59,843 nucleotides of DNA from a bacterium. Its GTDB lineage: Bacteria > Patescibacteriota > Minisyncoccia > UBA6257 > GWB1-50-10. The stretch covers positions 1 through 59,843 of the forward strand of contig JAUSKB010000016.1 of NCBI GenBank assembly GCA_030647415.1, read 5' to 3'. The notes below the pieces were generated by a model. That model saw nothing but the letters and a program-made list of their open reading frames with translations, did no database searches and was not told where the DNA came from. The position numbers and the translations under genes are program-made. This document shows positions 5,809-38,274 of the stretch, in pieces. The first letter of the stretch is position 1, and each line of letters starts with the position of its first letter.

Positions 5809-6435
5809 TTAGTTGTCTGCAGTTCGTTGTGGGTCGTCGGTTGTTTGCTCGCCTCGCCCGCCTCGCCGAGACGTCGAGTCGAGGCTGGGCTGAAGCTCTG
5901 GCGAAGCGGGTTGTCGGTCACCCACCAACATCACCCGCGCGGGCCGGAGCACGTTGCCATGGAAGAGGAACCCAGCGCTCACCTCCTCCGCGACCGTCCC
6001 CGGCGGATCTCCGCCGGTTGGCGGACCCGCGGCCTCGCCGACCGCCTCATGCCGCGCGGGATCGAATGGAGTGCCGGGCGGCACCGTGAGGCGTTCGAGC
6101 CCCCGACGGGCGAGTACCGATTCGAGCTGGGACCGCACGAGCACCATCCCCTGCAATGCCCCCGCGTCATCCTTCACCGCCTGGACCCCGAGGTCAAAGC
6201 TGTCGACGACCGAGAGAAGGTCGCGCACCAGGTCCTCCGTCGAAAACTTCGCGAAGCGCTCGAGTCGCTCCGCCTCCTCCCGCTTGTGGTTTACGAGGTC
6301 GGCTTTTGCGCGCTTCCATCCGTCGAGGTACTCATCGCGCTCGGCGCGACACCGGGTGAGGTCGTCTGGCGTGACAGGCTCGCTACCGCCATTCGTAGCC
6401 GGTTCAGGATTCATATTTTGATCATCAGTAGGCAT
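5809..6435 (-). CDS. grpE: nucleotide exchange factor GrpE with an about 35-aa repeat-derived C-terminal tail
   Basis: GrpE core (...DLVRDLLSVVDSFDL...GNVLRPARVMLVG). It sits between hrcA and dnaK. The tail QPASPELQPSLDSTSRRGGRGEQTTDD... is encoded by repeat A1 plus spacer-like DNA. Confidence 0.9.
   Translation of the reverse strand: MPTDDQNMNPEPATNGGSEPVTPDDLTRCRAERDEYLDGWKRAKADLVNHKREEAERLERFAKFSTEDLVRDLLSVVDSFDLGVQAVKDDAGALQGMVLVRSQLESVLARRGLERLTVPPGTPFDPARHEAVGEAAGPPTGGDPPGTVAEEVSAGFLFHGNVLRPARVMLVGDRQPASPELQPSLDSTSRRGGRGEQTTDDPQRTADN
5848..5910. repeat. GC-rich palindromic element family A, truncated copy A1
   Basis: The core cctcgcccgcctcgccgagacgtcgagtcgaggctgggctg.agc...gcgaagcggg is shared with 16461-16519 and 40232-40290. 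Confidence 0.85.
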
Positions 6436-6521
6436 ATGTAATAGGTAATAAGTAACTGGTAAGAGGCAATTGAAAATTCAGTTTACGATATCGTTTCCTA
6501 TTACTGGTTACCAATTACTAA

Positions 6522-7223
6522 CTACCCTTCCTCTATCGACCGCTCGAGCGCACGGAAGAGCGAGAGGGATTTCCGGTAATCCATGCGTTTCGGCCCCACA
6601 GCGATAAGGAGGAATTCACCGGCGGGACCGGCGAGCCGGTCGGCGACCACCGCGAGGTGCCCGCTCGTCGTGAAGGGACTCTCACCGATGAACACCTGCG
6701 GCCACTCGTCTGTCGTTTCCCACCGGTCCCGGCACGCGGCAATTCGGTCCGGCAGTTCCTCAAAATCCCGGACGACCTCAAGGAGGTCGCGCTTCTCCGG
6801 AAGCTCGAGGTGCGTGAGAAGGCTCCCTAAGCCGCTCTCGTACATCGCGCCATGGTCCGTCTCGTAGCCAATGCCCAGGAGGTCGAGGTAGCCCGCGACC
6901 TCGTCCACAAACGACTGCGGGTTACCGCTCGAGAACTCGCCAAGAAACGCCGCGGCACGGCGCGGCACGGTGTCCGCGTCGCCCCGCGAAACGAGCTCGC
7001 GAACAAAGAACCGGTATGCTTTGTCGGTGGGCAATCGGCCGCCCGACGGGTGCATCTGGCGGAGGTAGCCACTGTCAGCAAGTTCCTGCAGCTCCCAGCG
7101 GATCATGGCCGGCTTGATGCCAAAATCGAACGACTCGTAGAGACGCTCGGATGTCACCGGAAGCCCTTCAGCGATGAATCGCGCAACCGATGAAAAAAGG
7201 ATGTTCCGTGTCCGGTCTGTCAT
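6522..7223 (-). CDS. hrcA: heat-inducible transcription repressor HrcA (short form)
   Basis: Winged-helix N-terminus (ILFSSVARFIAEGLPVTSERL...) and the motif GYLRQMHPSGGRLPTDKAYRFF. First gene of hrcA-grpE-dnaK-dnaJ, with a CIRCE-like site upstream. Confidence 0.8.
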   Translation of the reverse strand: MTDRTRNILFSSVARFIAEGLPVTSERLYESFDFGIKPAMIRWELQELADSGYLRQMHPSGGRLPTDKAYRFFVRELVSRGDADTVPRRAAAFLGEFSSGNPQSFVDEVAGYLDLLGIGYETDHGAMYESGLGSLLTHLELPEKRDLLEVVRDFEELPDRIAACRDRWETTDEWPQVFIGESPFTTSGHLAVVADRLAGPAGEFLLIAVGPKRMDYRKSLSLFRALERSIEEG

Positions 7224-7434: not shown

Positions 7435-8280
7435 CTACCACGAGGCGGGACAGGTGGCCGTCGAGGTGGTAATCGTTCCGGCATTTGAAACGCCGATGCG
7501 GTAACACGTGCCGTTCGGCGATGTGAGCACGATGCCGGCGGCCGAGGTCGTGACGCCGATATCCCCCGCCGAACGGAGTTTCGCGGTACCCGCGGGGGCC
7601 ACGGTGCCGATACCGACACCGCCGTCCGTGGAAATGGTGCCCGAGAGGAAGAGGTCCTGCCATTTGCGGAGTGCGGTGCCGATGCCGCGGTTCGGCCCGA
7701 TGTCGCTCACCGGAAGCAGATTGGAATCAAACGTCGCCGCAGACACTTTCGCGATGGCGCTTTGCCATGACCGCGCGACCTGGGCACCTTGTTTCCCTGA
7801 AGAGCTGACGAGTGTCATATTAACCTCCACGACCGCGGTGCCACCGGGGTTTTGAAATGGCGTCACGAGGAACTGACCAACGGTCACCCTATCATCCGTG
7901 AGCGCCACCGGCGTCCCGGCCGCCTGACCATCCGGAATCTCCTCCACATATATCGCCGTACCCTCGCTGTTTACATATATCTTCACGCGGTCATTCACGG
8001 TGGCGGTGGACATTCGGAGCACTAAGGTGCTTGTGGGAACGCCCAATATGCTTTCCACGGCGCTCGCCGCGCGGACATAGCGCTGAATCGTGTCCGCGAC
8101 GAAGGTAATCTCCCGGGTGACATCGTTCGCTGATGCCTGCCGGACCTGCGTGCGAGTGACCGTCGTCAAGATGGAAATTAGAAATACCGCAGCCATCGAG
8201 AAGATGGCGATGTAGACCAGGAGCTCGACTAGTGTGAACCCTGTTCGAGTTTTGCAAACATTCTGGTTCTCGTGAAACAT
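7435..8280 (-). CDS. type IV pilin-like protein (prepilin N-terminal cleavage/methylation motif)
   Basis: From the ATG at 8280 the protein reads MFHENQNVCKTRTGFTLVELLVYIAIFSMAAVFLI, the classic G/FTLxE plus hydrophobic helix. The tracked ORF extends to 8367, but that part looks like a repeat arm. Confidence 0.75.
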   Translation of the reverse strand: MFHENQNVCKTRTGFTLVELLVYIAIFSMAAVFLISILTTVTRTQVRQASANDVTREITFVADTIQRYVRAASAVESILGVPTSTLVLRMSTATVNDRVKIYVNSEGTAIYVEEIPDGQAAGTPVALTDDRVTVGQFLVTPFQNPGGTAVVEVNMTLVSSSGKQGAQVARSWQSAIAKVSAATFDSNLLPVSDIGPNRGIGTALRKWQDLFLSGTISTDGGVGIGTVAPAGTAKLRSAGDIGVTTSAAGIVLTSPNGTCYRIGVSNAGTITTSTATCPASW

Positions 8281-8402
8281 CGTTGTATCCGGGACCGCCT
8301 GTGTTCGAGGTTCGGATTGCACGAAAAACTCAAACAGGGTAAACCCAGTGCGCGGATTGAGACTCATGAATACGCTATAATCATACCATACTATTTCGCC
8401 CG

Positions 8403-12697: not shown

Positions 12698-13981
12698 TCA
12701 GCTTTGATTTTTGAGGTCTGATTTTTGATTTTCTCCGACGATTTCCTTCTTCCCCACGTATTTTTGGAGCGCCTTCGGCACCCGCACCGTCCCCCTTTTG
12801 GTCTGATAGTTCTCGAGGATGGCGAGGATTGGCCGCTGGGAAAAGGCGGTTGCGTTCAAGAGGTGGAGGTACCCCTTCTCGCCCCCTGCCGTGAATTTCG
12901 CATTGATGCCGCGCGATTGGAAGTCCGTCGTGTTGGAGCACGAGTGTGTCTCGCGGTAGCATCCCTCCGCCGGGAACCAAATATCCACATCGAACTGCCG
13001 AAAGTCGGTCCACCCCATGTCACCCGTGCACATCTCGACGACGCGGTACGGGAGCTCGAGCGCCGCAACGAGCTCCTCCTGCAGTGAGAGGAGAAACCGG
13101 TGTTCTTCTTCAGACTTCTCGGGATGACAGAAGGAGAAAAGCTCCACCTTGTCAAACTGATGGACCCGCAGGATGCCTTTCGTGTCCTTGCCGTACGAAC
13201 CTGCCTCGCGCCGGAATGAGGTCGAGAAACCTACGTAGCGTTTCGGGAGTCTGTTTTCATCGAGCGTTTCCCCAGCGTGGAATGGACCCATGGAATGTTC
13301 GGCGCTCCCCACAAGATAGAGGCCGTCCTTTTCGAGAAAGTAGCGCTCCTCTTTTTGGTCCGCCGCGAGCCGCCCCATCCCCTCGAGCATCTCGGGGCGC
13401 ACCATGACGGGCGGGATGACCGGCACGAACCCGTGCGGCAAAAGCGTGTCGAGCGCGAGACGCTCAAGCGCAAACTCGAGGAGGGCGCCCTCGCGGAGCA
13501 GGTACCCGAACCGGGACCCCGAGACCTTCGCGGCGCGTTTCACATCAATGAGGCCGAGGCGTTCGCCGATTGAGAGGTAGTCCTTGACCGGGAAGTCGAA
13601 CACCGGGCGCTCCCCTACCTCGCGGAGGACACGGTTCGCCGATTCATCGGGACCGACCGGCACGTCGGGTGCCGGCACATTCGGCAGACGGTTCAGAAAA
13701 CCGGTCCGCTTCGCGGCAAGGTCCGCCACCTCCTTTTCGAGCTGTCCGATGCGCGTTTTCAAGAGCGTCGCCTTGCTCACTAAATCGTCTTTCTGACCTC
13801 CCGCGAGCTCCTTCGAGATGACGTTCTGCTCGCGGCGCAGCTCATCGATCGCCGCGACCTTCGCCTTCCACATTTCGTCTGCACGAAGGAACTTGTCGAC
13901 CAACTTCGGGTCGACCTTCTTCTTCTCCACGCCCGCCTTCACGAGGTCGGCGTGCTCACGGATGTATTGGATGTCAAGCAT
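12698..13981 (-). CDS. serS: seryl-tRNA synthetase
   Basis: MLDIQYIREHADLVKAGVEKK coiled-coil arm plus class II motifs (FRREAGSYGKDTKGILRVHQFDKVE; GGEKGYLHLLNATAFS). Confidence 0.96.
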   Translation of the reverse strand: MLDIQYIREHADLVKAGVEKKKVDPKLVDKFLRADEMWKAKVAAIDELRREQNVISKELAGGQKDDLVSKATLLKTRIGQLEKEVADLAAKRTGFLNRLPNVPAPDVPVGPDESANRVLREVGERPVFDFPVKDYLSIGERLGLIDVKRAAKVSGSRFGYLLREGALLEFALERLALDTLLPHGFVPVIPPVMVRPEMLEGMGRLAADQKEERYFLEKDGLYLVGSAEHSMGPFHAGETLDENRLPKRYVGFSTSFRREAGSYGKDTKGILRVHQFDKVELFSFCHPEKSEEEHRFLLSLQEELVAALELPYRVVEMCTGDMGWTDFRQFDVDIWFPAEGCYRETHSCSNTTDFQSRGINAKFTAGGEKGYLHLLNATAFSQRPILAILENYQTKRGTVRVPKALQKYVGKKEIVGENQKSDLKNQS

Positions 13982-13986
13982 GGAAT

Positions 13987-14085
13987 GATACCAATATGCT
14001 AATGGTACGAATGATGCGAATCATACGAATGGAAACGGATTAGTATTATTCGTATCATTCGCATGAATTCGTATATTAGCATCAC
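13987..14085. repeat. spacer-filling palindrome family C (cgaat words), copy C1
   Basis: Arms gataccaatatgctaatggtacgaatgatgcgaatcatacgaatgg / ttagtattattcgtatcattcgcatgaattcgtatattagcatc. It fills the gap between the serS start and the lysS stop. Confidence 0.85.
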
Positions 14086-14086: not shown

Positions 14087-15529
14087 CTACGCATTCCGCA
14101 TCGGCGGGAAGAAGACCGTCTCGCGGATGGGTTTGTCGGCCATAACGGCGAAGAGCCGCTCGGAAAGCCCGAACCCGGCGGTCGGCGGCATACCGTACTC
14201 CAGGGCCTCGATGAAATCCTCGTCAATGCGTTGTGCCTCCTCGTCCCCCGCCTCGCGGAGCGCCATCTGCTCCTCGAACCGCTTCCGCTGTTCGTCCGGG
14301 TCGTTCAGCTCCGCCCAGCCGTTCCCTACCTCCGTACCTGCCGCGAGCACCTGGAACCGGAGTGCCCGGCCCGGCCGGTCGGGGTCCGCTTTTGCGAGCG
14401 GCGAGATGATGAGCGGGTGGCCGACGAGAAAGCATGGTTCTATAAGCGTCGGTCGGACGGTCTTTTTGTATATCAAATCGATGAGCCGCCCCGTTCCGAG
14501 CGTCGGGTCCACGGGGAGCGCAAGCTTCGCGGCGACCGCGGTAAGCGCCTCGCGGTCCGCAGTCAGGGGGTTGACGCCTGTCGCCGCGGCGAATGCGTCC
14601 ACATAGTCTACCTCACGCCACGTCCCGCCCCACTCGAGGATGACATCGCCGAACGTGGTGACGGTCGAACCCCAGGTCGCCTCGGCCACATGACAATAGA
14701 GGCCGGCGACGAACGCCATCATCTGCTGGTGGTCCCAGTAGGCGGCGTAGCACTCCATCTGCGTGTAGTCCTGTAGATGGTCGCGGTCGATCCCTTCATT
14801 CCGGAAGATGCGCCCGATCTCGAAGACCTTCTCGAACCCTCCCACGAGGAGTTTCTTAAGCGGCAGCTCGAGCGAGATGCGGAGAAAGAAGTCCTGGTCG
14901 AGGGCATTGTGGTGCGTCACGAATGGCGTCGCGTCCGCACCGCCGGGCACTTGCTCGAGCACCGAGGTCTCCACCTCAAGGAACCCCGCATGAACAAGCT
15001 CCTCGCGCATGGCGCGCCAGAACGAACTCTTCTTCCGGAACAGCTCCCGAACACCCGGGTCGGCGATAAGGTCGAGGTACCGCTTCCGGAGCCGGAGTTC
15101 CGTGTCGGAAAGTCCGTACCAGGTCGTCGGCACCGGCCGGAGGCTTTTTGCCGCAATCGTGGCCGCCACCGCCGCGATACTCGGCTCGCCTCGTTTCGTC
15201 GTGAGCGGGTTCCCGGTCACCGAGAGGAAGTCACCAACATCCACCGTCTCCACGAGGTGGGAAAACATTTCCGAGCCCAGCTCATTCGCGTCGAGAATCA
15301 CCTGAAGTTTTCCCGTACCGTCATCAAGGTCCGCGAAGATTATCTTGCCTTGGTCGCGCCAGGAAACGACGCGGCCGGCAACCGACCGCGCGTCATGCTG
15401 CCCGGCGAGGACCGCCGCGCGCGCCGCCGCGAGCGTCTCGGTGCGGGCGACGGTGGCAGGGTACGGATCGGCGCCCGCACGCACTCGTGCGAGCTTTCGA
15501 CGTCGTTCTTCTATGAGCTCGTCAAGCAT
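14087..15529 (-). CDS. lysS: lysyl-tRNA synthetase (class II)
   Basis: OB-fold N-domain (GRVVSWRDQGKIIFADLDDGTGKLQV) and class II core (FRNEGIDRDHLQDYTQMECY; GMPPTAGFGLSERL). Confidence 0.96.
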   Translation of the reverse strand: MLDELIEERRRKLARVRAGADPYPATVARTETLAAARAAVLAGQHDARSVAGRVVSWRDQGKIIFADLDDGTGKLQVILDANELGSEMFSHLVETVDVGDFLSVTGNPLTTKRGEPSIAAVAATIAAKSLRPVPTTWYGLSDTELRLRKRYLDLIADPGVRELFRKKSSFWRAMREELVHAGFLEVETSVLEQVPGGADATPFVTHHNALDQDFFLRISLELPLKKLLVGGFEKVFEIGRIFRNEGIDRDHLQDYTQMECYAAYWDHQQMMAFVAGLYCHVAEATWGSTVTTFGDVILEWGGTWREVDYVDAFAAATGVNPLTADREALTAVAAKLALPVDPTLGTGRLIDLIYKKTVRPTLIEPCFLVGHPLIISPLAKADPDRPGRALRFQVLAAGTEVGNGWAELNDPDEQRKRFEEQMALREAGDEEAQRIDEDFIEALEYGMPPTAGFGLSERLFAVMADKPIRETVFFPPMRNA

Positions 15530-15534: not shown

Positions 15535-15608
15535 GATACTAATATACGAATTCATTCGAATGATACGAATAGTACTAATGCACCCCTATTCGTATCATAT
15601 ATTTTATC
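15535..15608. repeat. palindrome family C, copy C2 (right arm truncated)
   Basis: gatactaatatacgaattcattcgaatgatacgaatagtactaatg ... ctattcgtatcatat. It fills the gap between the lysS start and the greA stop. Confidence 0.8.
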
Positions 15609-16068
15609 AGGTGATGGACAGGATCCGGAGCGAGGCGGCGCCGCGCGGCGTCGTCACGTGCACCTCGTCCCCCACCCGCTTGCCGAGCAGGCTCCGCCCA
15701 ATCGGGGACTCGTTCGAAATCAATCCGCGGCCCGGCTGGGCCTCACTCGAGCCGGTGATCGTATAGGTCACCGTATCCCGGTCTCGTTCCGCCGTCACCG
15801 TGGAACCGATCTTCACCATGCCCGCAGCGCTCCCCGCCGACGTTATGATCGAGGAGGTGCGAAGAATGTCATCCAGCTGGCTGATACGCTGTTCCAAATT
15901 CGCCTGTTCGTCCCGCGCGGTCTGGTAATCGAAGTTTTCCGAAAGGTCCCCGAGGTCCTTCGCCTGCTTCAAGCGTTCAGCGATACGTCGCCGACCATCG
16001 GTTTTTAGCTCCCGGACCTCCTTTTCGATCTCCTCGAACCGTTCTTTGGTGAGATATGCGTGTTTCAT
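15607..16068 (-). CDS. greA: transcription elongation factor GreA
   Basis: 153 aa; LTKERFEEIEKEVRELK...DLSENFDYQTARDEQ coiled coil plus a C-terminal globular domain. Confidence 0.93.
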   Translation of the reverse strand: MKHAYLTKERFEEIEKEVRELKTDGRRRIAERLKQAKDLGDLSENFDYQTARDEQANLEQRISQLDDILRTSSIITSAGSAAGMVKIGSTVTAERDRDTVTYTITGSSEAQPGRGLISNESPIGRSLLGKRVGDEVHVTTPRGAASLRILSIT

Positions 16069-18058: not shown

Positions 18059-18169
18059 GTTTACCCTGTTAGAGATTTACATGCACGCCTTTCAAAATAT
18101 ACCTGTTTGTACTAATACCAGCAGGTATACATCCAAAATGATTCTCTGTAAATCTCTAACAGGGTGAAC
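18059..18169. repeat. 107-bp-class TIR element family F4, copy 1
   Basis: Arms gtttaccctgttagagatttaca / tgtaaatctctaacagggtgaac (1 mismatch). It lies 23 nt upstream of the mrdA ATG. Confidence 0.88.
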
Positions 18170-19462: not shown

Positions 19463-20503
19463 TCACCGGAGATGCAGCCCCGGCATGACGGAAAAGTTGT
19501 TGAGTAGCGACTCGAACTGGTCGAACTGCTCGCACACCATGCCGGTGCCGCGAACCACGCAGGTGAGCGGTTCCTCAACGATGCTCACCGCGACACCAAT
19601 CTCCTTCTCAATGATTGCGTCGATACCGCGCAAGAGGCTCCCCCCGCCGCAGCAGTGCACCCCGTTCTTGTACACGTCGCCGACCAACTCCGGCGGGGTG
19701 CTCTCGATGAGGTCCTTCAGGGCCTCGGTGATGACTTTAAGCGGTCGGACGAGCCAGGTCCGCACCTGCACGTCTCGGACCGGGACCTCGCGGGGAAGCC
19801 CGCTCGTGAGGTCGCGGCCACGAATCACGATCTCGAGGCGCTCGCCCGCGACCGGCGCGGCCGTTCCCACCGCGAGCTTGATCTCCTCTGCGGTCGGCTC
19901 GCCGATGTGGAGCTTCAGCTCGTCCCGCGTCGCCCGGATGATTTCCTGGTTCAGGTAATCCCCGGCGATCTTCAGCCGCCGGGAGATGACGATGCCGTTC
20001 ATGGAAATGACCGCCATGTCGGTGGCACCAGCGCCCAGATCGACAAGGAGGTAGGCGGTCGCCTGCTGGATGTCGAGGTGGCTCCCGAGGGCCCCCGCGA
20101 GCGGCTGTTCGATGAGAAACACCTCGCTTGCCCCCACCTCGCGGAGCAGGTCCTCGACCGATTTCCGCTCCACCTCCGTCAGGTTGGTCGGGACCGACAC
20201 GATGGCGCGCGTGAGCCAGGACCACGGCAGATGCTCGCGCCGAAGGAACCGCTCGAGGAGCTCCCGCGCCATGTCGAAATCGGCGATTACCCCGTGACTT
20301 ATCGGCCGGAGCGCGGTGATGTGGGTCGGCGTCCGCGCGAGCATGCGCTTCGCATCAAGACCGACGGCGATGGTTCGGTTCGTCCGGTTGTTGAAGGCGA
20401 TGATGGACGGCTCGTTCACCACGATGCCGGTGCCCTTCAGGTAGATACGGGTGGTGTCCGTCCCGAGGTCGATGCCGATGGTTTTGCGGAAATTGAAGGC
20501 CAT
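19463..20503 (-). CDS. mreB: rod shape-determining protein MreB
   Basis: Actin-fold motifs IGIDLGTDTTRIY, VDLGAGATDMAVIS, GGGSLLRGID (346 aa). Confidence 0.95.
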   Translation of the reverse strand: MAFNFRKTIGIDLGTDTTRIYLKGTGIVVNEPSIIAFNNRTNRTIAVGLDAKRMLARTPTHITALRPISHGVIADFDMARELLERFLRREHLPWSWLTRAIVSVPTNLTEVERKSVEDLLREVGASEVFLIEQPLAGALGSHLDIQQATAYLLVDLGAGATDMAVISMNGIVISRRLKIAGDYLNQEIIRATRDELKLHIGEPTAEEIKLAVGTAAPVAGERLEIVIRGRDLTSGLPREVPVRDVQVRTWLVRPLKVITEALKDLIESTPPELVGDVYKNGVHCCGGGSLLRGIDAIIEKEIGVAVSIVEEPLTCVVRGTGMVCEQFDQFESLLNNFSVMPGLHLR

Positions 20504-20504
20504 A

Positions 20505-20653
20505 AGAGTAATCGCGAATAATGCTAATTATTGCAAATAATGCGAATGAATGCGCACTCCATTCGCATCAGTATACCTGCTATTCGCATTATTCGCGATT
20601 ACTCTTTTCATTCGAATTATTACCTTTGCTATTCGAATTATTCGCGATTACTC
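20505..20653. repeat. 149-bp complex palindrome family C-prime, copy 1
   Basis: Left arm gagtaatcgcgaataatgc. Two alternative right arms: attcgcattattcgcgattactc and attcgaattattcgcgattactc. It overlaps the last codons of proS. Confidence 0.85.
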
Positions 20654-21897
20654 CCGAGGAGCGCGGGCAGGTCCTTCAGCGCGACGAGCTCAGGCTTCCC
20701 GTTCTTGCGCTCTTTTACCTCCACCTTGTTGTGCGCGAGGGTCTTTTCGGAAACGACGAGGCGTGCGGGGATACCGATGAGGTCGGCGTCCGTGAACTTT
20801 TCCCCTGCCGACATTTCGTGCCGGTCGTCGAAGAGGACCTCCATGCCTTTTTTCGTCAGCGCCTCATACACCTTCTCGGCGTAGGCACGAACCTTTTCAT
20901 CCTCACCGAGCACAACGAGGTGCGCGGCGGCGGGCGCGACACTCCGGGGCCAGACGATGCCCCTATCGTCGTGGTGCACCTCTACGATGGTCCCCACGAG
21001 CCGGTCTACCCCGATACCGTAGGATGCCATGATAACGGGGTGGAGCGCACCCGCCGCATCGCGGTAGCGGAGATTCAGTGGCTCCGAGAACCGCGTGCCG
21101 AGCTTGAAAATATTCCCCACCTCGCTCGTCGCGACGTGCTCCACGACGCCGCCGGGGCATTTGGGGCAGGTGGCGCCGGACTTGAGCTTCGATATCTCCT
21201 TGTTCTCCGCATAGCCGCAGAGCCGGCAAAGCACCGTCTCGTCCTCGCCGGCAGACGTTTCCACCATGAACTCATGCGAGTGCTCCTTAGAGAAGTCGCC
21301 GCCCGATGCCTCCGTGACGAACGCGGTGAGCTCCATGCGCTTGAAAACCTTGAGGTAGGCGTGCTTCACCACTTCGTAAAACTCCGCAAGCGATTGCTCA
21401 TCCGCGTGGAAGCTGTAGAGGTCCTTCATGGAAAACTCCCGCCCGCGCATGAGGCCGGACTTCGCGCGCGCCTCGCTCCGGAACTTCGTCTGTATCTGAT
21501 AGGTCGAAATCGGCAGGTCGGCGTAGGAGAAAATGATATGCGTGCCGATCGCGGCGACAATCTCCTCGTGCGTGGGACCCAGGCCGTACTCCTTCCCTTG
21601 CAGGTCCCTAAACTGGTACATCACGCTCTTCATGCTCTCCCATCGGCCGGTCGCGTCCCATGCGGCGCGGGGATGGAGGGCAGGCATGAGGAGCTCCGAG
21701 GCGCCAAGCGCGTTCATCTCCTCGCGGATGATGCCGATGACCTTCTCGCGGACGCGAAATCCCAAGGGCAGGAAGGTGTGGACGCCCGCCATAAGCTTCG
21801 AGATGAACCCACCCCGCGCAAGGAGCTGCGCGTTCACCGAGACCTCATCCTTCGGGGCCTCTTTGAGCGTGCGGGAGAATAATTTTGACTGCCTCAT
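20638..21897 (-). CDS. proS: prolyl-tRNA synthetase, short form without INS editing domain
   Basis: MRQSKLFSRTLKEAPKDEVSVNAQLLARGGF..., motif 2 FRSEARAKSGLMRGREFSMKDLYSF, motif 3 SYGIGVDRL. Only 419 aa. Confidence 0.92.
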   Translation of the reverse strand: MRQSKLFSRTLKEAPKDEVSVNAQLLARGGFISKLMAGVHTFLPLGFRVREKVIGIIREEMNALGASELLMPALHPRAAWDATGRWESMKSVMYQFRDLQGKEYGLGPTHEEIVAAIGTHIIFSYADLPISTYQIQTKFRSEARAKSGLMRGREFSMKDLYSFHADEQSLAEFYEVVKHAYLKVFKRMELTAFVTEASGGDFSKEHSHEFMVETSAGEDETVLCRLCGYAENKEISKLKSGATCPKCPGGVVEHVATSEVGNIFKLGTRFSEPLNLRYRDAAGALHPVIMASYGIGVDRLVGTIVEVHHDDRGIVWPRSVAPAAAHLVVLGEDEKVRAYAEKVYEALTKKGMEVLFDDRHEMSAGEKFTDADLIGIPARLVVSEKTLAHNKVEVKERKNGKPELVALKDLPALLGSNRE

Positions 21898-22046
21898 GGA
21901 GTAATCGCGAATAATGCTAATTTAACTCAAATAATGCGAATAAATGCGCTCTATTCGCATTATTACCTCTACAATTCGCATTATTAGCGATTACTCTCTT
22001 CATTCGCATTATTATATCTGCAATTCGCATTATTAGCGATTACTCC
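21898..22046. repeat. 149-bp complex palindrome family C-prime, copy 2
   Basis: Same organisation and orientation as 20505-20653, and roughly 80 percent identical by eye. It abuts the proS ATG. Confidence 0.85.
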
Positions 22047-22047
22047 T

Positions 22048-22079
22048 TATAGTACCCAAATTTCCGCATTCGGCAACTT
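22048..22079. repeat. 32-bp direct repeat, left flank of the hicAB cassette
   Basis: tatagtacccaaatttccgcattcggcaactt; matches 22814-22845 at 30/32 positions. Confidence 0.85.
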
Positions 22080-22092
22080 ACCACAAATGGAC

Positions 22093-22338
22093 CTAAAGTT
22101 GCCGCCGGATGTCATCCCATGTCACCCCGCTGTACCGCTCGATTTCCTTGAGCACGTATGAGAGAACCTCCTTCGGGAGCTTCTGCGGTATAGTGACCGA
22201 TTTTTGGGTCGGCGGCCAGGTAGTTTTGTAGTGGCTGCCGTCCCCGCCCCGCTCGTCGATCAAAAACCCAAGACGCCGGAGCGCCTTGATGAGTTTCCTC
22301 CGCTTCAATTCCCCGGGTAATTCGCTATGCGGCGGCAT
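22093..22338 (-). CDS. hicA: HicA/YcfA-like toxin (type II TA)
   Basis: 81 aa from the ATG at 22338: ...KRRKLIKALRRLGFLIDERGGDGSHYKTTW...VTIPQKLPKEVLSYVLKEI. It overlaps the upstream antitoxin ORF by 14 nt. Confidence 0.6.
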   Translation of the reverse strand: MPPHSELPGELKRRKLIKALRRLGFLIDERGGDGSHYKTTWPPTQKSVTIPQKLPKEVLSYVLKEIERYSGVTWDDIRRQL

Positions 22339-22684
22339 ACGCTTCCCCCCGGTCGGTCTCACGGCGAATCGCCGCTTCGGGAGCGTATGCGGACGGCACG
22401 CTGAACGCCGTAAGGATGCCGTCTTTAACACTCCGGTCAAGTTCCTCTGGCGTGCGGCCGTGAGCGACGATGCTGCCGTACGTAAAGTTCGCGCTCACCG
22501 AGACGAGTGTGTCGCCCTCGCGGTGATGTTCGAACCGAATCGGGCCGAAGTTCTTGAAGTACCGGTGCAGGTCGAGCAGACCGCTCGGGACGGTCGAGGT
22601 ACCCAAGATGAACTTCCCAACCCGGTCCTTTGCAACTTTGAAGATGTTCATGGGACTTTTAGATTTATTCTCCTGCCACAGCAT
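22325..22684 (-). CDS. hicB: HicB-like antitoxin (UPF0150-type fold)
   Basis: ...VSANFTYGSIVAHGRTPEELDRSVKDGILTAF resembles the HicB N-domain. It is paired with and overlaps hicA. The start could be 22684 or 22651. Confidence 0.5.
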   Translation of the reverse strand: MLWQENKSKSPMNIFKVAKDRVGKFILGTSTVPSGLLDLHRYFKNFGPIRFEHHREGDTLVSVSANFTYGSIVAHGRTPEELDRSVKDGILTAFSVPSAYAPEAAIRRETDRGEAYAAA

Positions 22685-22698
22685 CCGTCAACACGTTG

Positions 22699-22707
22699 AT
22701 TATACCA
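22699..22707 (-). promoter_or_regulatory. extended -10 box candidate for hicBA
   Basis: The minus strand reads TGGTATAAT about 15 nt upstream of the 22684 ATG. Confidence 0.35.
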
Positions 22708-22758
22708 CATGGTCAGCCGATTTCCTTTCACGCCCATCCACCGCCTACTCACTCGTTA

Positions 22759-22780
22759 TTATCGAAGTCGGACTTCGATA
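22759..22780. repeat. hairpin family H copy 2
   Basis: ttatcgaagtcggacttcgata. With its flanks (ctcgttatt...gattc) it matches 25371-25408. Confidence 0.85.
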
Positions 22781-22813
22781 GATTCAAGAGTTTTGACTGG
22801 CGCATTGCCTCTC

Positions 22814-22845
22814 TATACTACCCAAATTTCCGCGTTCGGCAACTT
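22814..22845. repeat. 32-bp direct repeat, right flank of the hicAB cassette
   Basis: tatactacccaaatttccgcgttcggcaactt. Confidence 0.85.
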
Positions 22846-22953
22846 TCAGGAATCTCCCCGAGTGGGACGAAGTTGGTGATGTGTGCCGGGAAATAGAGAA
22901 GGTTGCCTGAGAATGAAAACACAAAGTCGCCTCATACCGAGGCGACTCCTTAC

Positions 22954-23712
22954 TCACTCTACCCATTCCACATGCTCACCGACAGAGACCCACTTTCTAT
23001 CGGCGCCTTTCTCATAGGAAACAATCCTACCTCCGTAGCCGACTCTGAAGTGAACCTCAACCCTGTCGAACTTCGGGTTGAACACGAAGGTCATCGTCGG
23101 CATCGTCATCAAATGCCAATATCCGCCCCAATGCCCATGGAGAATCGGGAGAAACTTTTTCACGAGCGCCTCGCGCTCGGCGCTCGTGCCTGTGGCCCGT
23201 GAAGGGCGCATGATACCGGGGGAACCGAACTTCGTCGATTTGCTACCGAGAAACCGCTTGAGCAGGGTGTCGTACTTCAAGGTCAGATAGAGGACCCTGA
23301 CCGTGTCTCCAAAGTCGAGCTTCGGCCTGAAGCTTTTGATGACGAACTTCGTGGCTCCATTGCGGTCGTCCCACTTCCCGTTCTCGCTGATGTAGTACAT
23401 GAACGATCCCGGGACCACGACGTTCCGATACCCGTCATTGATCGCACCATCGGAGTTGAACGACACTTTGTCCTTGAGATCGAACGGAGTGAATAATTGC
23501 CGATACAGGCCATAGACCACCCCCGCCGTATCGCTCTCTTTCTTGGTGTCTCTAGGTGCGTATTCTTTTCCCCACCGATCCAGAAATCCCGAGAAATTCC
23601 ACTCGTGATCGCTGGTCGCATAAACTATCTGTTCCAATGATTTCTGGGCCTGCAAGGTTACTGGAAACAGAAGCACAAGCAACACTATAGATATATGAGA
23701 CTTTAACCTCAT
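22954..23712 (-). CDS. secreted hypothetical protein
   Basis: Signal peptide MRLKSHISIVLLVLLFPVTLQAQ, a good SD (aaggaaggag N6 ATG), and lower GC than the surroundings. Confidence 0.6.
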   Translation of the reverse strand: MRLKSHISIVLLVLLFPVTLQAQKSLEQIVYATSDHEWNFSGFLDRWGKEYAPRDTKKESDTAGVVYGLYRQLFTPFDLKDKVSFNSDGAINDGYRNVVVPGSFMYYISENGKWDDRNGATKFVIKSFRPKLDFGDTVRVLYLTLKYDTLLKRFLGSKSTKFGSPGIMRPSRATGTSAEREALVKKFLPILHGHWGGYWHLMTMPTMTFVFNPKFDRVEVHFRVGYGGRIVSYEKGADRKWVSVGEHVEWVE

Positions 23713-23904
23713 AACCGACTCCTTCCTTATTGATTGTGAATACTCTCGAAACTCTGGTTTAGAGATAACACTGATGGCGTTCTCCTGTCAAACCTCGTCG
23801 CTCCCCTTGCTGGACGCGTTGAGCCTCGCCCGTAGGCTACGGCCGAGGGAACGGTGGATTGGCCCCTAGTTAAACAAGAAATGGAGCTTATGCCTATATT
23901 TGTA

Positions 23905-23939
23905 TAAAAAGTTTGAAGCCCTGGGTTCGCCAGGGCTTC
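23905..23939 (-). terminator. rho-independent terminator of 23960..24478
   Basis: Minus strand: gaagccctgg-cgaac-ccagggcttc, then aaacTTTTTat. Confidence 0.6.
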
Positions 23940-23959
23940 GGTTTGCCTCCACCTCCTGT

Positions 23960-24478
23960 CTAAAACTGTTTTTGCAGCTCGATCCACGCTAACTCCCACG
24001 AAGATGATTTGTCCTTCGTCACGTACTCCTCAAGCCGATGACGTTTAGCTTCGTTATTCACAGAAGCTAAAATCCTAAGCCGATGCTCGGCGTCATAATC
24101 ATCTTCCTTTAAACGGAGGGCTTCTTCGCAGATCTCCTTGTTTTCGAGGGTGATGAAGAAGTTGGAGGTGCCGTGATTCGTGAACATCAACCGTGGTATC
24201 CCCATGACGACCGCCTGTGCCAAAAGATCGTATCCATTCCTTTCCAACAGCACCTTGTAGTCATTATCACGCTTAAGGTTCGAATAGCTACCAATGCTGT
24301 CGGTGGAAAGAAACGGCATTGACCGATCAGTCAGGAGGGCGTCCGCCACAGGCAACAGCTCCTGCGCCTCCTTTCTGCTGGTCGCGTACATGAACTCAAA
24401 GCCCTTAACCGTCGAGAAGAAGCTTTTGGCCGCCTGCAGGTTTTCTTTGGTGTCTTCAACTATAAGAATTTTTTTCAT
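23960..24478 (-). CDS. orphan receiver (REC)-like domain protein
   Basis: MKKILIVEDTKENL...ALLTDRSMP resembles a CheY-like acidic pocket and phospho-acceptor Asp. SD gggag N7 ATG. No output domain was recognised. Confidence 0.45.
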   Translation of the reverse strand: MKKILIVEDTKENLQAAKSFFSTVKGFEFMYATSRKEAQELLPVADALLTDRSMPFLSTDSIGSYSNLKRDNDYKVLLERNGYDLLAQAVVMGIPRLMFTNHGTSNFFITLENKEICEEALRLKEDDYDAEHRLRILASVNNEAKRHRLEEYVTKDKSSSWELAWIELQKQF

Positions 24479-24590
24479 TAATTTCTCCCAATATTGGTTT
24501 ATGAATGATTCCTTACTTTTCTATTGAAATTATAGCACTATTGTATGCTTTTTGTCAAATTTATCTGCTCCCCCCAGTTGGACTCAAACC

Positions 24591-24627
24591 CACAGCAATT
24601 TCCCCACATCCTGCACCGTGACGATGG
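24591..24627 (-). pseudogene. relic copy of the rseP 3' end
   Basis: cacagcaatttccccacatcctgcaccgtgacgatgg matches 25421-25457 at 33/37 positions. It would encode ...TIVTVQDVGKLL, compared with rseP ...AIVTVQDVGKLL*. Confidence 0.8.
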
Positions 24628-24643
24628 TACGGCGGCCCCGTGT

Positions 24644-24952
24644 TTACCCTACGAGGCCGACCTGCTTATCAAATACATTCGCAATCTTGTGCAGTGTTGC
24701 GATCGAGAAACTGTGTGTTCCTGACTCAATCCGGGCAATGACCGACTGGGGCATGTCGGCTTTGGCCGCAACCTCCTTTTGGGTCATCTTCCGTTCCTGG
24801 CGCAATGTTTTGATTTCGTGCGCCAATTGTAATCTGCTCATTTCTTCGGAAAATGTTTTGCGAAATCGCTCACTCTTGAGCTTTTCTTTAATAACCGCAT
24901 CGAGAGAAATTGAATTGTATTTTTTGGCGATTTTTTTCATCTTTTTATGCAC
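24644..24952 (-). CDS. higA: XRE-family HTH antitoxin (HigA-like)
   Basis: ...RQERKMTQKEVAAKADMPQSVIARIESGTHSFSIATLHKIANVF, a Cro/C1-type HTH. Located downstream of the toxin gene. Confidence 0.75.
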   Translation of the reverse strand: MHKKMKKIAKKYNSISLDAVIKEKLKSERFRKTFSEEMSRLQLAHEIKTLRQERKMTQKEVAAKADMPQSVIARIESGTHSFSIATLHKIANVFDKQVGLVG

Positions 24953-24963
24953 GCGATAGATAG

Positions 24964-25257
24964 TCAGCGAGTTATGTCTTTATAGATTTTCTCTGCTCGT
25001 TCGATAATTCGCTTGGGTGTTTTCTGGCTCTTTTTCCTGAAGGCATCTACAACATACCCCGTTGATCCCACGAAGAAAAATACGATTCGATACTGTTTCA
25101 CCACCATTTCCCTAATTTTCCCTTTCAGTGGTTTAATAAGCAATCCTTCTGTGCGATTTTCCTGAAGCGACTTAAGGTGAGCAATAATCTTTGCGGTATC
25201 ATCTTCGGGAATCCTTTCGAGAAAATCGGAGGTGTCATCAAGGATCCGTATATTCAT
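24964..25257 (-). CDS. higB: RelE/ParE-superfamily toxin, Gp49/HigB-like
   Basis: ...GKIREMVVKQYRIVFFFVGSTGYVVDAFRKKSQKTPKRIIERAEK, the typical Gp49-like signature. The toxin-first gene order is as in higBA. Confidence 0.75.
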   Translation of the reverse strand: MNIRILDDTSDFLERIPEDDTAKIIAHLKSLQENRTEGLLIKPLKGKIREMVVKQYRIVFFFVGSTGYVVDAFRKKSQKTPKRIIERAEKIYKDITR

Positions 25258-25381
25258 AGCTTGCGCGCGCTATTTTGTCGACCTTTATACACTAACACCA
25301 ACAGTATAGCAATATTGCTATACTTGTAAAGAGGTGTTGTTCCGTCAGTTTTTGTCTCGTGTTTCGTGTCTCGTTATTATA

Positions 25382-25419: not shown

Positions 25420-26481
25420 CTACAGCAGTTTCCCCACGTCCTGCACGGTGACGATGGCCATGAGGAGAAGGAGGGCGGCGAACCCGACGCCGTTTATGGC
25501 TATCTGTACTCGGCGCGGGATGGGGCGCCGAATGAGCTTTTCAACAAGCAACACGAGGACCCGGCCGCCGTCCAAGGCCGGAAACGGAATCAGGTTCAGG
25601 ATGACCAGGTTCAGCGAGATGAGGGCGAGGAGCTGGAAAAAGTAGACCGCGCCGAGCTCGCCCGTGCGGACGGCAAAGCTCACAATACCGACCGGCCCGC
25701 TCACCTTCTGGAGCACGCCGGGCTCCGTAAAAACATTTGTGAGGAGGTACCAGAAGCTCGATGCCACCTCCCCGAGCGTCCGGAAGGTCTGGAAGAAGGC
25801 CTCGGCAATCGCCTGGTGAATCGGGAGGGCCGGAAACCCGATGGAGGTGAGCGCAATACCGAGTGAGCCCTCGCCCGGCGGCGGGGTCGCCCGCCCGACG
25901 AGCGTGACGGTGCGCGTCCCGCCCGCACCGGTGAGTTCAAGCGAGAGCGTCTTCCCCGCCGCGGACCTGGCGAGCGCGACGAATGCGTCGGCGTCTATTG
26001 GGTCCGCGAGCGCCGTCTCTCCCCATGTGGCGCGGGCGATGACATCACCCTGCACGATGCGTGCTTCAGCCGCGGGCGAACCGGACGAGACGCCACCCAC
26101 GATGAGATGCTCCGGCGCGCCGGCGGCGAAGACACCCGTCAAAATTACAAATCCGAAGAGGACGTTCATCGCTACACCCGCAAGGAGAATACCGATCCGC
26201 TTCCAGAGTGGTTTCGCTCCAAAGCGCCGTTCCGGCTCATCGCCCACCTCCTCTTCCGACTTCCCAGCCGGCTGTTCCCCGTGGATGCGCACGAACCCGC
26301 CAAACGGCAGGGCGTTCACGCTGTATGTCGTCTCGCCCACCGTCCGGCTCCAGAGCCGCGGCGGGAACCCGATACCAAACTCGTCCACGCGCACTCCGGC
26401 CGCCTTTGCCGCCAAAAAATGGCCCAGCTCATGGACCAGGATGACGAGCGACAAACCGATGATGGATAAAAAAATAATCAT
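25420..26481 (-). CDS. rseP: RIP metalloprotease RseP (site-2 protease, M50)
   Basis: HELGHF zinc motif in the first TM helix, a PDZ-like middle region, and the C-terminal motif LNLIPFPALDGG. Confidence 0.92.
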   Translation of the reverse strand: MIIFLSIIGLSLVILVHELGHFLAAKAAGVRVDEFGIGFPPRLWSRTVGETTYSVNALPFGGFVRIHGEQPAGKSEEEVGDEPERRFGAKPLWKRIGILLAGVAMNVLFGFVILTGVFAAGAPEHLIVGGVSSGSPAAEARIVQGDVIARATWGETALADPIDADAFVALARSAAGKTLSLELTGAGGTRTVTLVGRATPPPGEGSLGIALTSIGFPALPIHQAIAEAFFQTFRTLGEVASSFWYLLTNVFTEPGVLQKVSGPVGIVSFAVRTGELGAVYFFQLLALISLNLVILNLIPFPALDGGRVLVLLVEKLIRRPIPRRVQIAINGVGFAALLLLMAIVTVQDVGKLL

Positions 26482-26482
26482 A

Positions 26483-26572: not shown

Positions 26573-26574
26573 CT

Positions 26575-28019: not shown

Positions 28020-28020
28020 A

Positions 28021-28150: not shown

Positions 28151-28153
28151 AGT

Positions 28154-38163: not shown

Positions 38164-38274
38164 TGATACAAATATACTAATGGTACGAATGATACTAATC
38201 ATACGAATGGGAATTCGTTGGTGTTATTAGTATTATTCGTATCATTCGCATGAATTCGTATATTGGTATCGCAC
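38164..38274. repeat. palindrome family C, copy C3
   Basis: gatacaaatatactaatggtacgaatgatactaatcatacgaatggg ... ttagtattattcgtatcattcgcatgaattcgtatattggtatc. It fills the gap between the rpsM start and the rpmJ stop. Confidence 0.88.

What the first reader, a model, noticed from the sequence alone, without database searches (positions are those of the whole stretch)
13987..14085. cgaat-word palindrome family C: four copies, each exactly filling a stop-to-start gap
**Copies:** 13987-14085 (lysS stop / serS start), 15535-15608 (greA stop / lysS start), 38164-38274 (rpmJ stop / rpsM start) and 43618-43720 (167-aa gene stop / ATPase start).

**Arms:** the approximately 45-nt arms are built from tacgaat/attcgta words. 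The right-arm consensus is ttagtattattcgtatcattcgcatgaattcgtatattggtatc.

The copies are clearly homologous and not merely low-complexity, because runs of more than 30 nt are shared. They serve unrelated operons.
Basis: seen in the sequence. Interest (0 to 1): 0.7.

Follow-up and report, generated by a model that had tools for sequence, protein, structure and literature searches.

The report
Gene-less remnants of a nuclease cassette
The four AT-rich palindromes are real, and they match the two end-pieces of a tiny cassette, found across the candidate-phyla-radiation (CPR) bacteria, that normally carries an uncharacterised nuclease gene; this looks like a REP/MITE-like repeat system that has not been described.

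Summary
**Observation.** It is confirmed. There are four homologous copies, at 13987-14083, 15535-15608 (truncated and inverted), 38165-38270 and 43618-43715. Each fills a stop-to-start gap on the minus strand, leaving 3-8 nt of flank.

**Anatomy.** Each arm is an array of five 7-nt words, TAC(G/T)AAT, spaced about 9 nt apart.

**Distribution.** The family is not local to this window. A pattern with no matches in shuffles of the window hit more than 110 contigs of GTDB genomes. All named ones are Patescibacteria/CPR of many classes, with locus GC of 0.29-0.57.

**Link to a gene.**
- Every inverted arm pair 150-3000 nt apart in which I called an ORF (86 of 134 pairs) encloses a ~125-aa GxxExxY protein (Pfam PDDEXK_3, TIGR04256), never another gene. 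The other 48 pairs had no called ORF.
- Of 80 metagenomic loci picked by that protein alone, 56 have family-C arms on both sides and 1 has none.
- The window copies are therefore the gene-less (MITE/REPIN-like) form.

**What argues against a selected hairpin.**
- Mirrored variable bases do not covary; they avoid pairing.
- Single arms are common.
- I found no target-site duplication, no Rfam match and no terminator.

**Other findings.**
- Orthologous junctions carry a cassette, a palindrome, a single arm or nothing in different lineages.
- A Bacteroides GxxExxY gene has analogous arms built from a different 9-nt word.

**Open.** Mobilisation by the nuclease is inferred, not shown.

The parts
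13987..14083 (.). Copy c1, a full gene-less element. Arm 13987-14030 (GATACC..TACGAAT, five words), loop 14031-14039, inverted arm 14040-14083. It lies between the lysS stop (14087-14089) and the serS ATG (13979-13981), both on the minus strand.
   Evidence: nhmmer E=3.6e-20; fold -37.9 kcal/mol, z -7.1
15535..15608 (.). Copy c2. It has one complete arm (15535-15579), a short loop, and a truncated second arm (15587-15608) whose end overlaps the greA stop codon (15607-15609). It is inverted relative to c1, c3 and c4. The lysS ATG (15527-15529) lies 5 nt from the GATAC terminus.
   Evidence: nhmmer E=2.9e-11, profile positions 1-65 only; weak fold, z -2.2
38165..38270 (.). Copy c3, a full gene-less element inside the ribosomal-protein operon. 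It lies between the rpmJ stop (38274-38276) and the rpsM ATG (38159-38161), with 3 nt of flank on each side.
   Evidence: nhmmer E=3.9e-20; arms 97% identical to an element in a Jorgensenbacteria MAG, L005
43618..43715 (.). Copy c4, a full gene-less element. It lies between the stop of a 167-aa ORF (43721-43723) and the ATG of a VirD4/TrwB-like ATPase (43607-43609).
   Evidence: nhmmer E=1.7e-22; fold -36.8 kcal/mol, z -7.6

Best explanation
**What it is.** Family C is the gene-less form of a very small cassette that occurs throughout the Patescibacteria (CPR).

**The complete cassette (about 470-520 nt).**
- It has two inverted arms. Each arm is an array of five words, TAC(G/T)AAT, at a period of about 9 nt, and ends in GATAC.
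- Between the arms lies a ~125-aa PD-(D/E)XK nuclease gene of the GxxExxY family.
- The gene's start codon lies in the left arm and its stop codon in the right arm.

**How the other forms arise.**
- Losing the gene brings the arms together as a ~100-nt palindrome. That is the state of the window's c1, c3 and c4.
- Losing part of an arm gives single or truncated arms. That is the state of c2.

**Most likely mechanism (inferred).**
- The words are the binding sites of the GxxExxY nuclease.
- The nuclease, supplied in trans from a complete cassette, copies or moves arm-bounded units into the few nucleotides between a stop codon and the next start codon.
- The process leaves no target-site duplication. 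This resembles REP/REPIN elements with their RAYT enzyme, but uses a different enzyme class.

**Why the copies are tolerated (inferred).**
- This organism does not use Shine-Dalgarno sites.
- The element termini place -10-like TAnnnT hexamers (TAGTAT, TATATT, TATCAT) 6-9 nt before the downstream ATG, as at many native gene starts here.

**Shown versus inferred.**
- Shown: the anatomy, the phylum-wide distribution, the exclusive arm-gene association, the variable occupancy of orthologous junctions, and the absence of covariation and of duplications.
- Inferred: that the nuclease binds the words, that it mobilises the arms, and any effect on expression.
For: All named ones are CPR of many classes.

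**Census in the 110 GTDB loci plus the window.**
- There are 158 sites: 98 full palindromes and 60 single arms.
- Six of the seven word positions are about 95% conserved. The central base is free.
- Start codons lie mostly 5-9 nt, and stop codons mostly -2 to +8 nt, from the termini.

**Association with the gene.**
- All 7 GxxExxY ORFs in those loci abut an arm.
- Family assignment: Pfam PF13366 at E 8e-18 and 5e-20, and TIGR04256.
- Independent sample: 80 metagenome loci chosen by the protein alone gave 56 with arms on both sides, 10 upstream only, 7 downstream only and 1 with none. The rest lie at contig ends.
- Of 134 arm pairs 150-3000 nt apart, 86 enclose a GxxExxY ORF and none encloses another gene. 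The remaining 48 pairs had no ORF in my crude gene calls; those listed are mostly loci fetched through the protein, but one 1185-nt pair in L055 is unexplained.
- The start and stop codons of the gene lie inside the arms.
- The catalytic D..ExK is invariant. The AF2 model has pLDDT 91.5 and a PD-(D/E)XK fold.

**Evolutionary dynamics.**
- Pairs of orthologous junctions differ in state: cassette/palindrome 8, cassette/empty 8, palindrome/empty 10, arm/empty 10.
- In relatives of the window organism, the greA-lysS-serS gaps are occupied in an 81%-identity relative. One gap there holds a different word family. The gaps are empty (6 and 15 nt) in a 73%-identity relative.
- The same genomes or loci hold both cassettes and gene-less copies (L020 with L029 and L059; L085; L080).

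**Other support.**
- Logan contigs break inside the arms.
- A Bacteroides finegoldii GxxExxY gene sits between inverted arms of three 9-nt words (CACAGAGGA-like). The same arms occur without the gene at many other sites of that assembly.
- In the window, SD-like motifs precede 5 of 41 gene starts, below background. TAnnnT lies 4-10 nt upstream of 14 of 41 starts, against 4.4% at random positions.
Against: - No transposition or homing event was observed. There are no near-identical recent copies: arm identity is 0.86 within genomes and 0.80 between genomes. No strain-level presence/absence polymorphism was found.
- No GxxExxY gene lies in the 59.8-kb window, and the rest of this genome could not be inspected.
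- The high, position-specific conservation of every copy across classes fits a host-selected site at least as well as decaying selfish DNA.
- GxxExxY has no demonstrated activity, and no close solved structure exists.
- Two of four non-CPR GxxExxY genes examined show no flanking inverted repeat.
- The consensus scan finds no -35/-10 promoter on the gene strand in c1 or c2.
- The asymmetry between start-side and stop-side termini is weak.
Confidence: 0.6

Rival explanations
1. The palindrome is a host element with its own function, such as a binding-site array for a conserved CPR protein. The GxxExxY gene would then be a homing-endonuclease-like parasite that inserts into the palindrome's centre, using the arms as recognition and homology sequence.
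For: - Every copy keeps the word positions at about 95% across classes, while the central base and the spacers vary freely.
- Between-genome arm identity of 0.80 is close to the within-genome value of 0.86.
- Gene-less copies far outnumber cassettes: 158 sites against 7.
- The gene always sits exactly between the arms.
- There are no duplications, as expected for homing.
Against: - No candidate host factor other than GxxExxY is linked to the arms.
- Orthologous junctions are often empty, and occupied gaps in near relatives hold different word families. No particular junction therefore needs the element.
- Bacteroides shows the same architecture with an unrelated word. This fits enzyme-specific ends better than a conserved host site.
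Confidence: 0.2
2. The primary role is gene expression. The element would be a portable, outward-facing promoter for leaderless or near-leaderless mRNAs, which is why it abuts start codons.
For: - Start codons sit 5-9 nt from the GTATC terminus across CPR.
- The termini carry TATATT and TAGTAT.
- In the window, 3 of the 4 downstream genes get a TAnnnT hexamer 6-9 nt before the ATG. SD motifs are absent genome-wide here, and TAnnnT is enriched about 8-fold at native starts.
- Start-side termini are T/A-flavoured in 60% of cases, against 41% on stop sides.
Against: - The same termini abut stop codons equally often.
- Single arms occur with the inner end facing the start, as in six gaps of an r-protein operon in L081.
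- No -35/-10 consensus promoter lies on the gene strand.
- Insertion into gaps of 5-15 nt would by itself produce tight spacing.
- This reading does not explain five repeated words per arm or the nuclease gene.
Confidence: 0.15
3. It is a functional RNA hairpin in polycistronic mRNA, acting as a terminator, a 3'-end stabiliser, or an RNase III processing site like the stems of 23S rRNA intervening sequences.
For: - The minus-strand RNA folds strongly for three copies, with z-scores of -5.5 to -7.6.
- The elements sit between co-directional genes.
- An ORF between inverted repeats resembles rRNA intervening sequences (general knowledge).
Against: - Mirrored variable positions form Watson-Crick pairs less often than chance: 14 observed against 30 expected, and 23 against 38.
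- RNAalifold gives a covariation term of +0.25 kcal/mol, and 1 of 26 pairs is compensatory.
- Single arms are frequent, 20 sense and 17 antisense.
- No U-tract terminator is present, and there is no Rfam match.
Confidence: 0.04
4. It is a classical MITE derived from a DDE-type insertion sequence, or a chance, low-complexity or assembly artefact.
For: It has terminal inverted repeats, is small, is multi-copy and lies between genes.
Against: - No target-site duplication of 2-6 nt is seen at any offset in 103 elements.
- The only gene ever enclosed is a 125-aa PD-(D/E)XK protein.
- Shuffles give 0 matches.
- Independent assemblies carry the same arms.
Confidence: 0.01

Closest known systems
REP/REPIN elements with RAYT (TnpA-REP, HUH Y1 transposase) of Proteobacteria
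   Same: - Short repeats dispersed in intergenic gaps.
- They occur as inverted doublets that can form long hairpins, and as decayed singlets.
- The associated small nuclease gene is itself flanked by inverted copies of the repeat.
- There are no target-site duplications.
- Copies are not near-identical.
   Different: - The enzyme is a PD-(D/E)XK (GxxExxY, PF13366) protein, not an HUH tyrosine transposase.
- The arms are arrays of five 7-nt words at a 9-nt period rather than a single imperfect palindrome with a GTAG head.
- The gene overlaps both arms.
- The same sequence family spans a whole superphylum.
- The comparison rests on established knowledge of REPIN/RAYT, not on a test run here.
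MITEs and Neisseria Correia elements
   Same: - Non-coding units of about 100 nt with inverted ends, inserted between genes.
- Correia elements carry outward promoters and form RNase III-sensitive hairpins, which gives a model for how such insertions affect neighbouring genes.
   Different: - No TA or other duplication is present.
- A cognate gene-bearing form exists and encodes a nuclease, not a DDE transposase.
- The ends are word arrays.
Free-standing homing endonuclease genes, and 23S rRNA intervening sequences that carry small ORFs
   Same: - A tiny nuclease-fold gene is wedged between conserved genes.
- The ORF is bracketed by inverted repeats.
- Orthologous sites are patchily occupied.
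   Different: - The cassettes occupy at least 20 unrelated junction types, so there is no single homing site.
- Gene-less arm pairs are the majority form.
Cyanobacterial STRR heptamer repeats and small dispersed repeats
   Same: Intergenic arrays of short tandem words, sometimes in inverted arrangement.
   Different: No shared sequence, and no linked nuclease gene is known to me. This is a resemblance from memory only and was not tested.

Membership tests
Arms of the CPR GxxExxY (PF13366/TIGR04256) cassette | The sequence matches the arm profile built from elements of other CPR genomes | tested here: met
   nhmmer E-values are 1.7e-22 (c4), 3.6e-20 (c1), 3.9e-20 (c3) and 2.9e-11 (c2). The same profile finds arms beside 73 or more of 80 GxxExxY genes chosen by protein alone.
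Arms of the CPR GxxExxY (PF13366/TIGR04256) cassette | A GxxExxY ORF lies between the arms | tested here: not met
   The window copies have loops of 7-17 nt and no ORF. There is no GxxExxY ORF anywhere in the window. They are the gene-less form.
REP/REPIN-RAYT system | Dispersed intergenic repeats occur as inverted doublets and as singlets | tested here: met
   98 doublets and 60 single arms in about 0.87 Mb of CPR DNA, lying between genes.
REP/REPIN-RAYT system | The associated gene is flanked by the repeats and encodes an HUH Y1 (RAYT) transposase | tested here: not met
   The gene is flanked by the repeats. However, Pfam and NCBIfam assign it to PDDEXK_3/GxxExxY, and the AF2 and Foldseek results give a PD-(D/E)XK fold.
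Classical MITE (DDE-transposon derivative) | Target-site duplication flanks the element | tested here: not met
   Flanking k-mers of 2-6 nt, at offsets 0-3, match no more often than in shuffles in 103 elements.
Classical MITE (DDE-transposon derivative) | Terminal inverted repeats, small size, multiple copies | tested here: met
Intrinsic (Rho-independent) terminator | A GC-rich stem followed by a U-tract | tested here: not met
   The stems are AT-rich and have no T-run. The scan reports none at the copies.
Structured RNA family (Rfam) | A match to a curated covariance model, or covariation that supports a stem | tested here: not met
   There are 0 Rfam matches in the window. The covariation term is +0.25 kcal/mol, and 1 of 26 pairs is compensatory. 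Variable mirrored positions pair less often than chance.
Sigma-70 promoter | -35 and -10 hexamers with 16-18 nt spacing on the gene strand | tested here: inconclusive
   The consensus scan finds none on the minus strand in c1 or c2. However, -10-like TAnnnT hexamers lie 6-9 nt before 3 of the 4 downstream ATGs, as at many native starts. Transcription start data are needed.
TIGR-Tas guide-RNA arrays (known in CPR) | Tandem arrays of repeat-spacer units next to a tas (Nop-domain) gene | tested here: not met
   The copies are solitary, have no spacers, and have no adjacent tas-like gene.

The most novel reading that the evidence does not exclude
GxxExxY (PDDEXK_3) proteins would be the cognate enzymes of a previously unrecognised, phylum-crossing class of REP-like elements. 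GxxExxY is a large family of unknown function found in many phyla.

Each clade of the nuclease would recognise its own 9-nt-period word array:
- TAC(G/T)AAT in CPR.
- CAGAGGA-type words in Bacteroides.

The nuclease would propagate or maintain arm-bounded units in intergenic gaps. In CPR genomes, which lack Shine-Dalgarno sites, these units would have been co-opted as start-codon-proximal promoter modules.
Probability: 0.35. Interest if true: 0.85.

Novelty: new variant of a known kind. Interest (0 to 1): 0.8.

Why it matters
- **A handle on an unknown protein family.** GxxExxY/PF13366 is listed as 'unknown' in the PD-(D/E)XK survey (PMC3424549). This result gives it a testable function and a defined DNA partner. 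The profile search here found 3539 protein clusters (clustered at 90% identity) at E <= 1e-5 among the 8000 candidates scored.
- **A repeat family in very small genomes.** CPR genomes are among the smallest and most streamlined known. Even so, they keep tens of copies per megabase of an element conserved at about 80% identity across classes. The copy density is my estimate.
- **A practical consequence for metagenomics.** The arms break short-read assemblies, and their translations extend predicted proteins.
- **A possible role in gene expression.** If the termini act as promoters, the element would be part of how CPR bacteria express operons without Shine-Dalgarno sites.
- **An experimental route.** The Bacteroides analogue offers a genetically tractable system for testing.

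Tried and rejected
- **Rfam scan of the window:** no match.
- **TIGR-Tas arrays:** considered after a literature hit and rejected on architecture.
- **Target-site duplications:** none at any offset.
- **Strain-level presence/absence among near-duplicate metagenome loci (L187, L188, L190):** only point differences and 1-nt indels.
- **Viral contigs for the arm pattern, and phage records for the protein:** nothing. I found no evidence for a phage vector.
- **Orientation bias with respect to transcription:**
  - The profile orientation matches the transcription direction in 51 cases against 31.
  - The outermost word pair splits 30:12.
  - Start-side against stop-side termini differ 60% to 41%.
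  - I judged this too weak to call the element directional.
- **Anti-pairing inherited from distinct left and right cassette ends:** the cassette ends show only a mild T-flavour preference at the downstream end.
- **PDB sequence search for the nuclease:** no hit. Foldseek gave only weak PD-(D/E)XK matches: Cas4, splicing endonuclease and Hjc, with E >= 5e-3 and TM about 0.5.
- **Generality outside CPR:**
  - Bacteroides: clear.
  - Treponema: a weak 16-nt repeat.
  - Fusobacteria and Persicobacter: none.
- **Literature searches:** I searched for GxxExxY, PDDEXK_3, PF13366, TIGR04256, and for CPR together with palindromic, MITE and repetitive. None describes this.

Full report
**1.

The window comes from a CPR/Patescibacteria genome of about 60% GC. 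Its lysS is 64-66% identical to proteins named Candidatus Jorgensenbacteria, and unnamed relatives reach 81%. Most genes lie on the minus strand.

The four claimed copies are present. Pfam confirms the flanking genes as serS, lysS, greA, rpsM, rpmJ and a VirD4/TrwB-like ATPase. Measured against start and stop codons, each copy leaves only a few nucleotides of flank:

| Copy | Element | Flank on the stop side | Flank on the ATG side |
|---|---|---|---|
| c1 | 13987-14083 | 3 nt | 5 nt |
| c2 | 15535-15608 | overlaps the greA stop by 2 nt | 5 nt before the lysS ATG |
| c3 | 38165-38270 | 3 nt | 3 nt |
| c4 | 43618-43715 | 5 nt | 8 nt |

TACGAAT and ATTCGTA occur 17 times in the window, and 16 of those lie inside the copies. 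An arm pattern matches 6 times, against 0 in shuffles.

Three copies fold far better than shuffled sequence. c2 does not (z -2.2), because it is one complete arm in the opposite orientation plus a truncated second arm.

Logan contigs from an independent assembly carry the same genes and end inside the arms. The copies are therefore real, and repeated often enough to break assemblies.

**2. Anatomy.**

Alignment of elements from many genomes shows that each arm holds five words at a period of about 9 nt:
- GATAC-Y-AAT
- ATAC-K-AAT
- TRC-G-AAT
- GATAC-K-AAT
- ATAC-K-AAT

Six positions of each word are about 95% conserved. The central base varies freely, mostly G or T, and so do the spacers. The loop is 0-45 nt long.

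**3. The family is CPR-wide.**

The collection holds one genome per GTDB species. All named organisms are Patescibacteria. They include Harrison-, Jorgensen-, Doudna-, Zambryski-, Yanofsky-, Niyogi-, Azam-, Lipton-, Buchanan-, Uhr-, Wolfe-, Sung- and Nomurabacteria and Saccharibacteria. A few binned MAGs are labelled Gammaproteobacteria. Locus GC ranges from 0.29 to 0.57.

An nhmmer profile finds 158 sites in these loci plus the window: 98 full palindromes and 60 single arms.
- Start codons cluster 5-9 nt from the GTATC terminus.
- Stop codons cluster -2 to +8 nt from it.
- Contexts are stop/start in 44 cases, start/start in 5 and stop/stop in 4.

**4. The hairpin is not what is conserved.**

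- At the variable central base of mirrored words, Watson-Crick pairs are rarer than expected under independence: 14 observed against 30.4 ± 4.0 for the outer word, and 23 against 38.1 ± 4.3 for the second.
- RNAalifold pairs only invariant columns. Its covariation term is +0.25 kcal/mol, and 1 of 26 pairs shows a compensatory change.
- Single arms cannot form the hairpin. They are common and lie in either orientation relative to transcription, 20 sense and 17 antisense. One locus (L081) has six of them in consecutive gaps of a ribosomal-protein operon.
- No Rfam family matches.
- There is no intrinsic terminator.

**5. The arms are the ends of a nuclease cassette.**

Several single arms were followed by a similar small ORF.
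- **Family assignment.** Pfam assigns it to PDDEXK_3 (PF13366, E 8e-18 and 5e-20). NCBIfam assigns it to TIGR04256, 'GxxExxY protein'.
- **In the 110 loci.** All 7 such ORFs begin at an arm, and 5 have an inverted arm detected at the other end.
- **Independent test.** I fetched 80 metagenomic loci by protein similarity alone and scanned them with the arm profile. 56 have arms on both sides, 10 upstream only, 7 downstream only and 1 has none. The rest lie at contig ends.
- **Exclusivity.** Of 134 inverted arm pairs 150-3000 nt apart, 86 enclose a GxxExxY ORF and none encloses any other gene. The other 48 pairs had no ORF in my crude gene calls. Those listed are mostly loci that had been fetched through the protein. 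One 1185-nt pair in L055 is unexplained.
- **Compactness.** The ORF's ATG lies inside the left arm (CGA-ATG-ATA or A-ATG-CAT), and its stop lies inside the right arm. The next host gene starts 5-10 nt beyond the terminus.
- **The protein.** The catalytic D..ExK residues are invariant. The AlphaFold model is confident (pLDDT 91.5) and has a minimal PD-(D/E)XK fold. Its structural neighbours are only weak: Cas4, tRNA-splicing endonuclease and Hjc, with E >= 5e-3. PDB holds no sequence relative.
- **Family size.** The CPR clade of this protein is large. The search found 3539 clusters at E <= 1e-5 among the candidates scored, and many sit on contigs of 0.5-1.1 kb.

**6. Dynamics.**

- Cassettes occupy at least 20 different junction types. 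Examples are wzm-wzt-like ABC transporter genes, upstream of dnaX, after ruvA and after rpsI. The cassette ORF is co-oriented with the upstream gene 60:3.
- Pairs of orthologous junctions, identified by both flanking genes, differ in state: cassette/palindrome 8, cassette/empty 8, palindrome/empty 10, arm/empty 10.
- Around the window's own lysS, an 81%-identity relative has a diverged family-C element between greA and lysS, and a different word palindrome between lysS and serS. A 73%-identity relative has gaps of 6 and 15 nt.
- No target-site duplication is detectable.
- Arms are only slightly more alike within a genome (0.86) than between genomes (0.80). The window copies are closest to an element in a Jorgensenbacteria MAG (0.93-0.97).
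- Nothing was found in viral contigs or phage records.

**7. Expression context.**

In the window, SD-like motifs precede only 5 of 41 ATG starts, which is below background. A TAnnnT hexamer lies 4-10 nt upstream of 14 of 41 starts, against 4.4% at random positions. This suggests that leaderless or near-leaderless starts are common here.

Three of the four copies put such a hexamer 6-9 nt before the downstream ATG:
- TAGTAT before lysS.
- TATATT before rpsM.
- TATCAT before the ATPase.

This may explain why insertion right before a start codon is tolerated, or even useful. The evidence is limited:
- The termini that abut stop codons are nearly the same.
- The consensus scan sees no -35/-10 pair.

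I therefore treat promoter activity as a secondary, untested idea.

**8. Generality.**

A Bacteroides finegoldii GxxExxY gene lies between the radA stop and the next ATG, and the ATG is 5 nt after the arm. The gene is bracketed by 30-nt inverted arms of three 9-nt words, CACAGAGGA, CGCAGAGGA and CACGGAGGA.

The same arms occur without the gene at many unannotated sites of that assembly. One of these exactly fills a stop-to-stop gap.

A Treponema gene has a weak 16-nt flanking repeat. Fusobacteria and Persicobacter genes have none.

**9. Interpretation.**

The best-supported reading is that family C is the gene-less form of a GxxExxY cassette. It is organised like REPINs around a RAYT gene, but uses a PD-(D/E)XK enzyme and word-array ends.

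That the nuclease binds the words and propagates the units is inference. The main rival is that the palindrome is a host-selected site which the nuclease gene parasitises. The very even conservation of all copies keeps that rival alive.

Full-text searches found no description of this association or of any function for GxxExxY. The 2012 PD-(D/E)XK survey lists PF13366 as 'unknown'.

Noticed in passing
window 18059-18169, 36210-36320, 38383-38491, 40609-40758, 42066-42151, 8238-8340; also L002 88-215: A second palindrome family has 20-23-nt inverted ends, (T)ACCCTGTTAGAGTTTTACA ... TGTAAAACTCTAACAGGGT, around a variable interior of about 65 nt. In the infA-rpmJ gap, the rpmJ ATG (38385-38387) lies inside the arm (..TAACAGGATGAA). 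The family is shared with the 81%-identity relative but is absent from the other roughly 190 CPR loci held.
   Followed up: partly
window 20489-20655 and 21876-22070: A third family is built of GCGAATAAT/ATTATTCGC words, with ends GAGTAATCGCGAATAATGC. It flanks a 419-aa gene on both sides. The family-C profile hits it weakly (E 8e-4), so it may be a diverged relative with its own nuclease clade.
   Followed up: no
window 6401-6529, 29154-29284, 38844-38898, 45690-45742, 57851-57919; 26441-26604; 27984-28172: Further intergenic palindromes are built of other short words: GGTAAT/ATTACC heptamers, AATTTCTAATTACC and CTAAATCCTAA. The last two words also occur in a few other CPR loci. Most larger stop-to-start gaps in this window hold an AT-rich word palindrome of some kind.
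   Followed up: partly
window, all gene starts: Shine-Dalgarno-like motifs are essentially absent: 5 of 41 starts, below the random background. A TAnnnT hexamer 4-10 nt before the ATG is about 8-fold enriched. This suggests widespread leaderless or near-leaderless mRNAs in this organism.
   Followed up: partly
L002 4200-4340: In the 81%-identity relative, lysS is 18 aa longer. The extra C-terminal residues are encoded by the arm of a CCAAA/TTTGG-word palindrome that fills the lysS-serS gap. In L020, likewise, an upstream ORF reads through a family-C arm (..NANDTNKY). Arms can therefore extend predicted proteins.
   Followed up: no
L196 1125-1596 and L199 401-591 (Bacteroides finegoldii records NZ_OY725952.1 and NZ_OY725904.1): A GxxExxY gene is bracketed by inverted arrays of 9-nt CAGAGGA-type words. 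A gene-less copy of the same arms exactly fills a convergent stop-to-stop gap. Many more arm hits fall at unannotated sites of the same assembly.
   Followed up: partly
window 22000-25300 and 31100-32100: These stretches have clearly lower GC (0.46-0.54 against about 0.60) and low-GC3 ORFs. They may be recently acquired DNA.
   Followed up: no
window 54653-54748: Two adjacent 30-nt near-perfect palindromes, CATGCTAACATTCTGCAGAATGTTAGCATG and CATTCTAACATTCTTAAGAATGTTAGAATG, lie inside or next to a 457-aa ORF. They are unrelated to family C.
   Followed up: no
L055 6096-6144 and 7329-7373: An inverted pair of family-C arms lies 1185 nt apart, with no ORF of 70 aa or more called between them. It is the one long arm pair not explained by a GxxExxY gene.
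   Followed up: no
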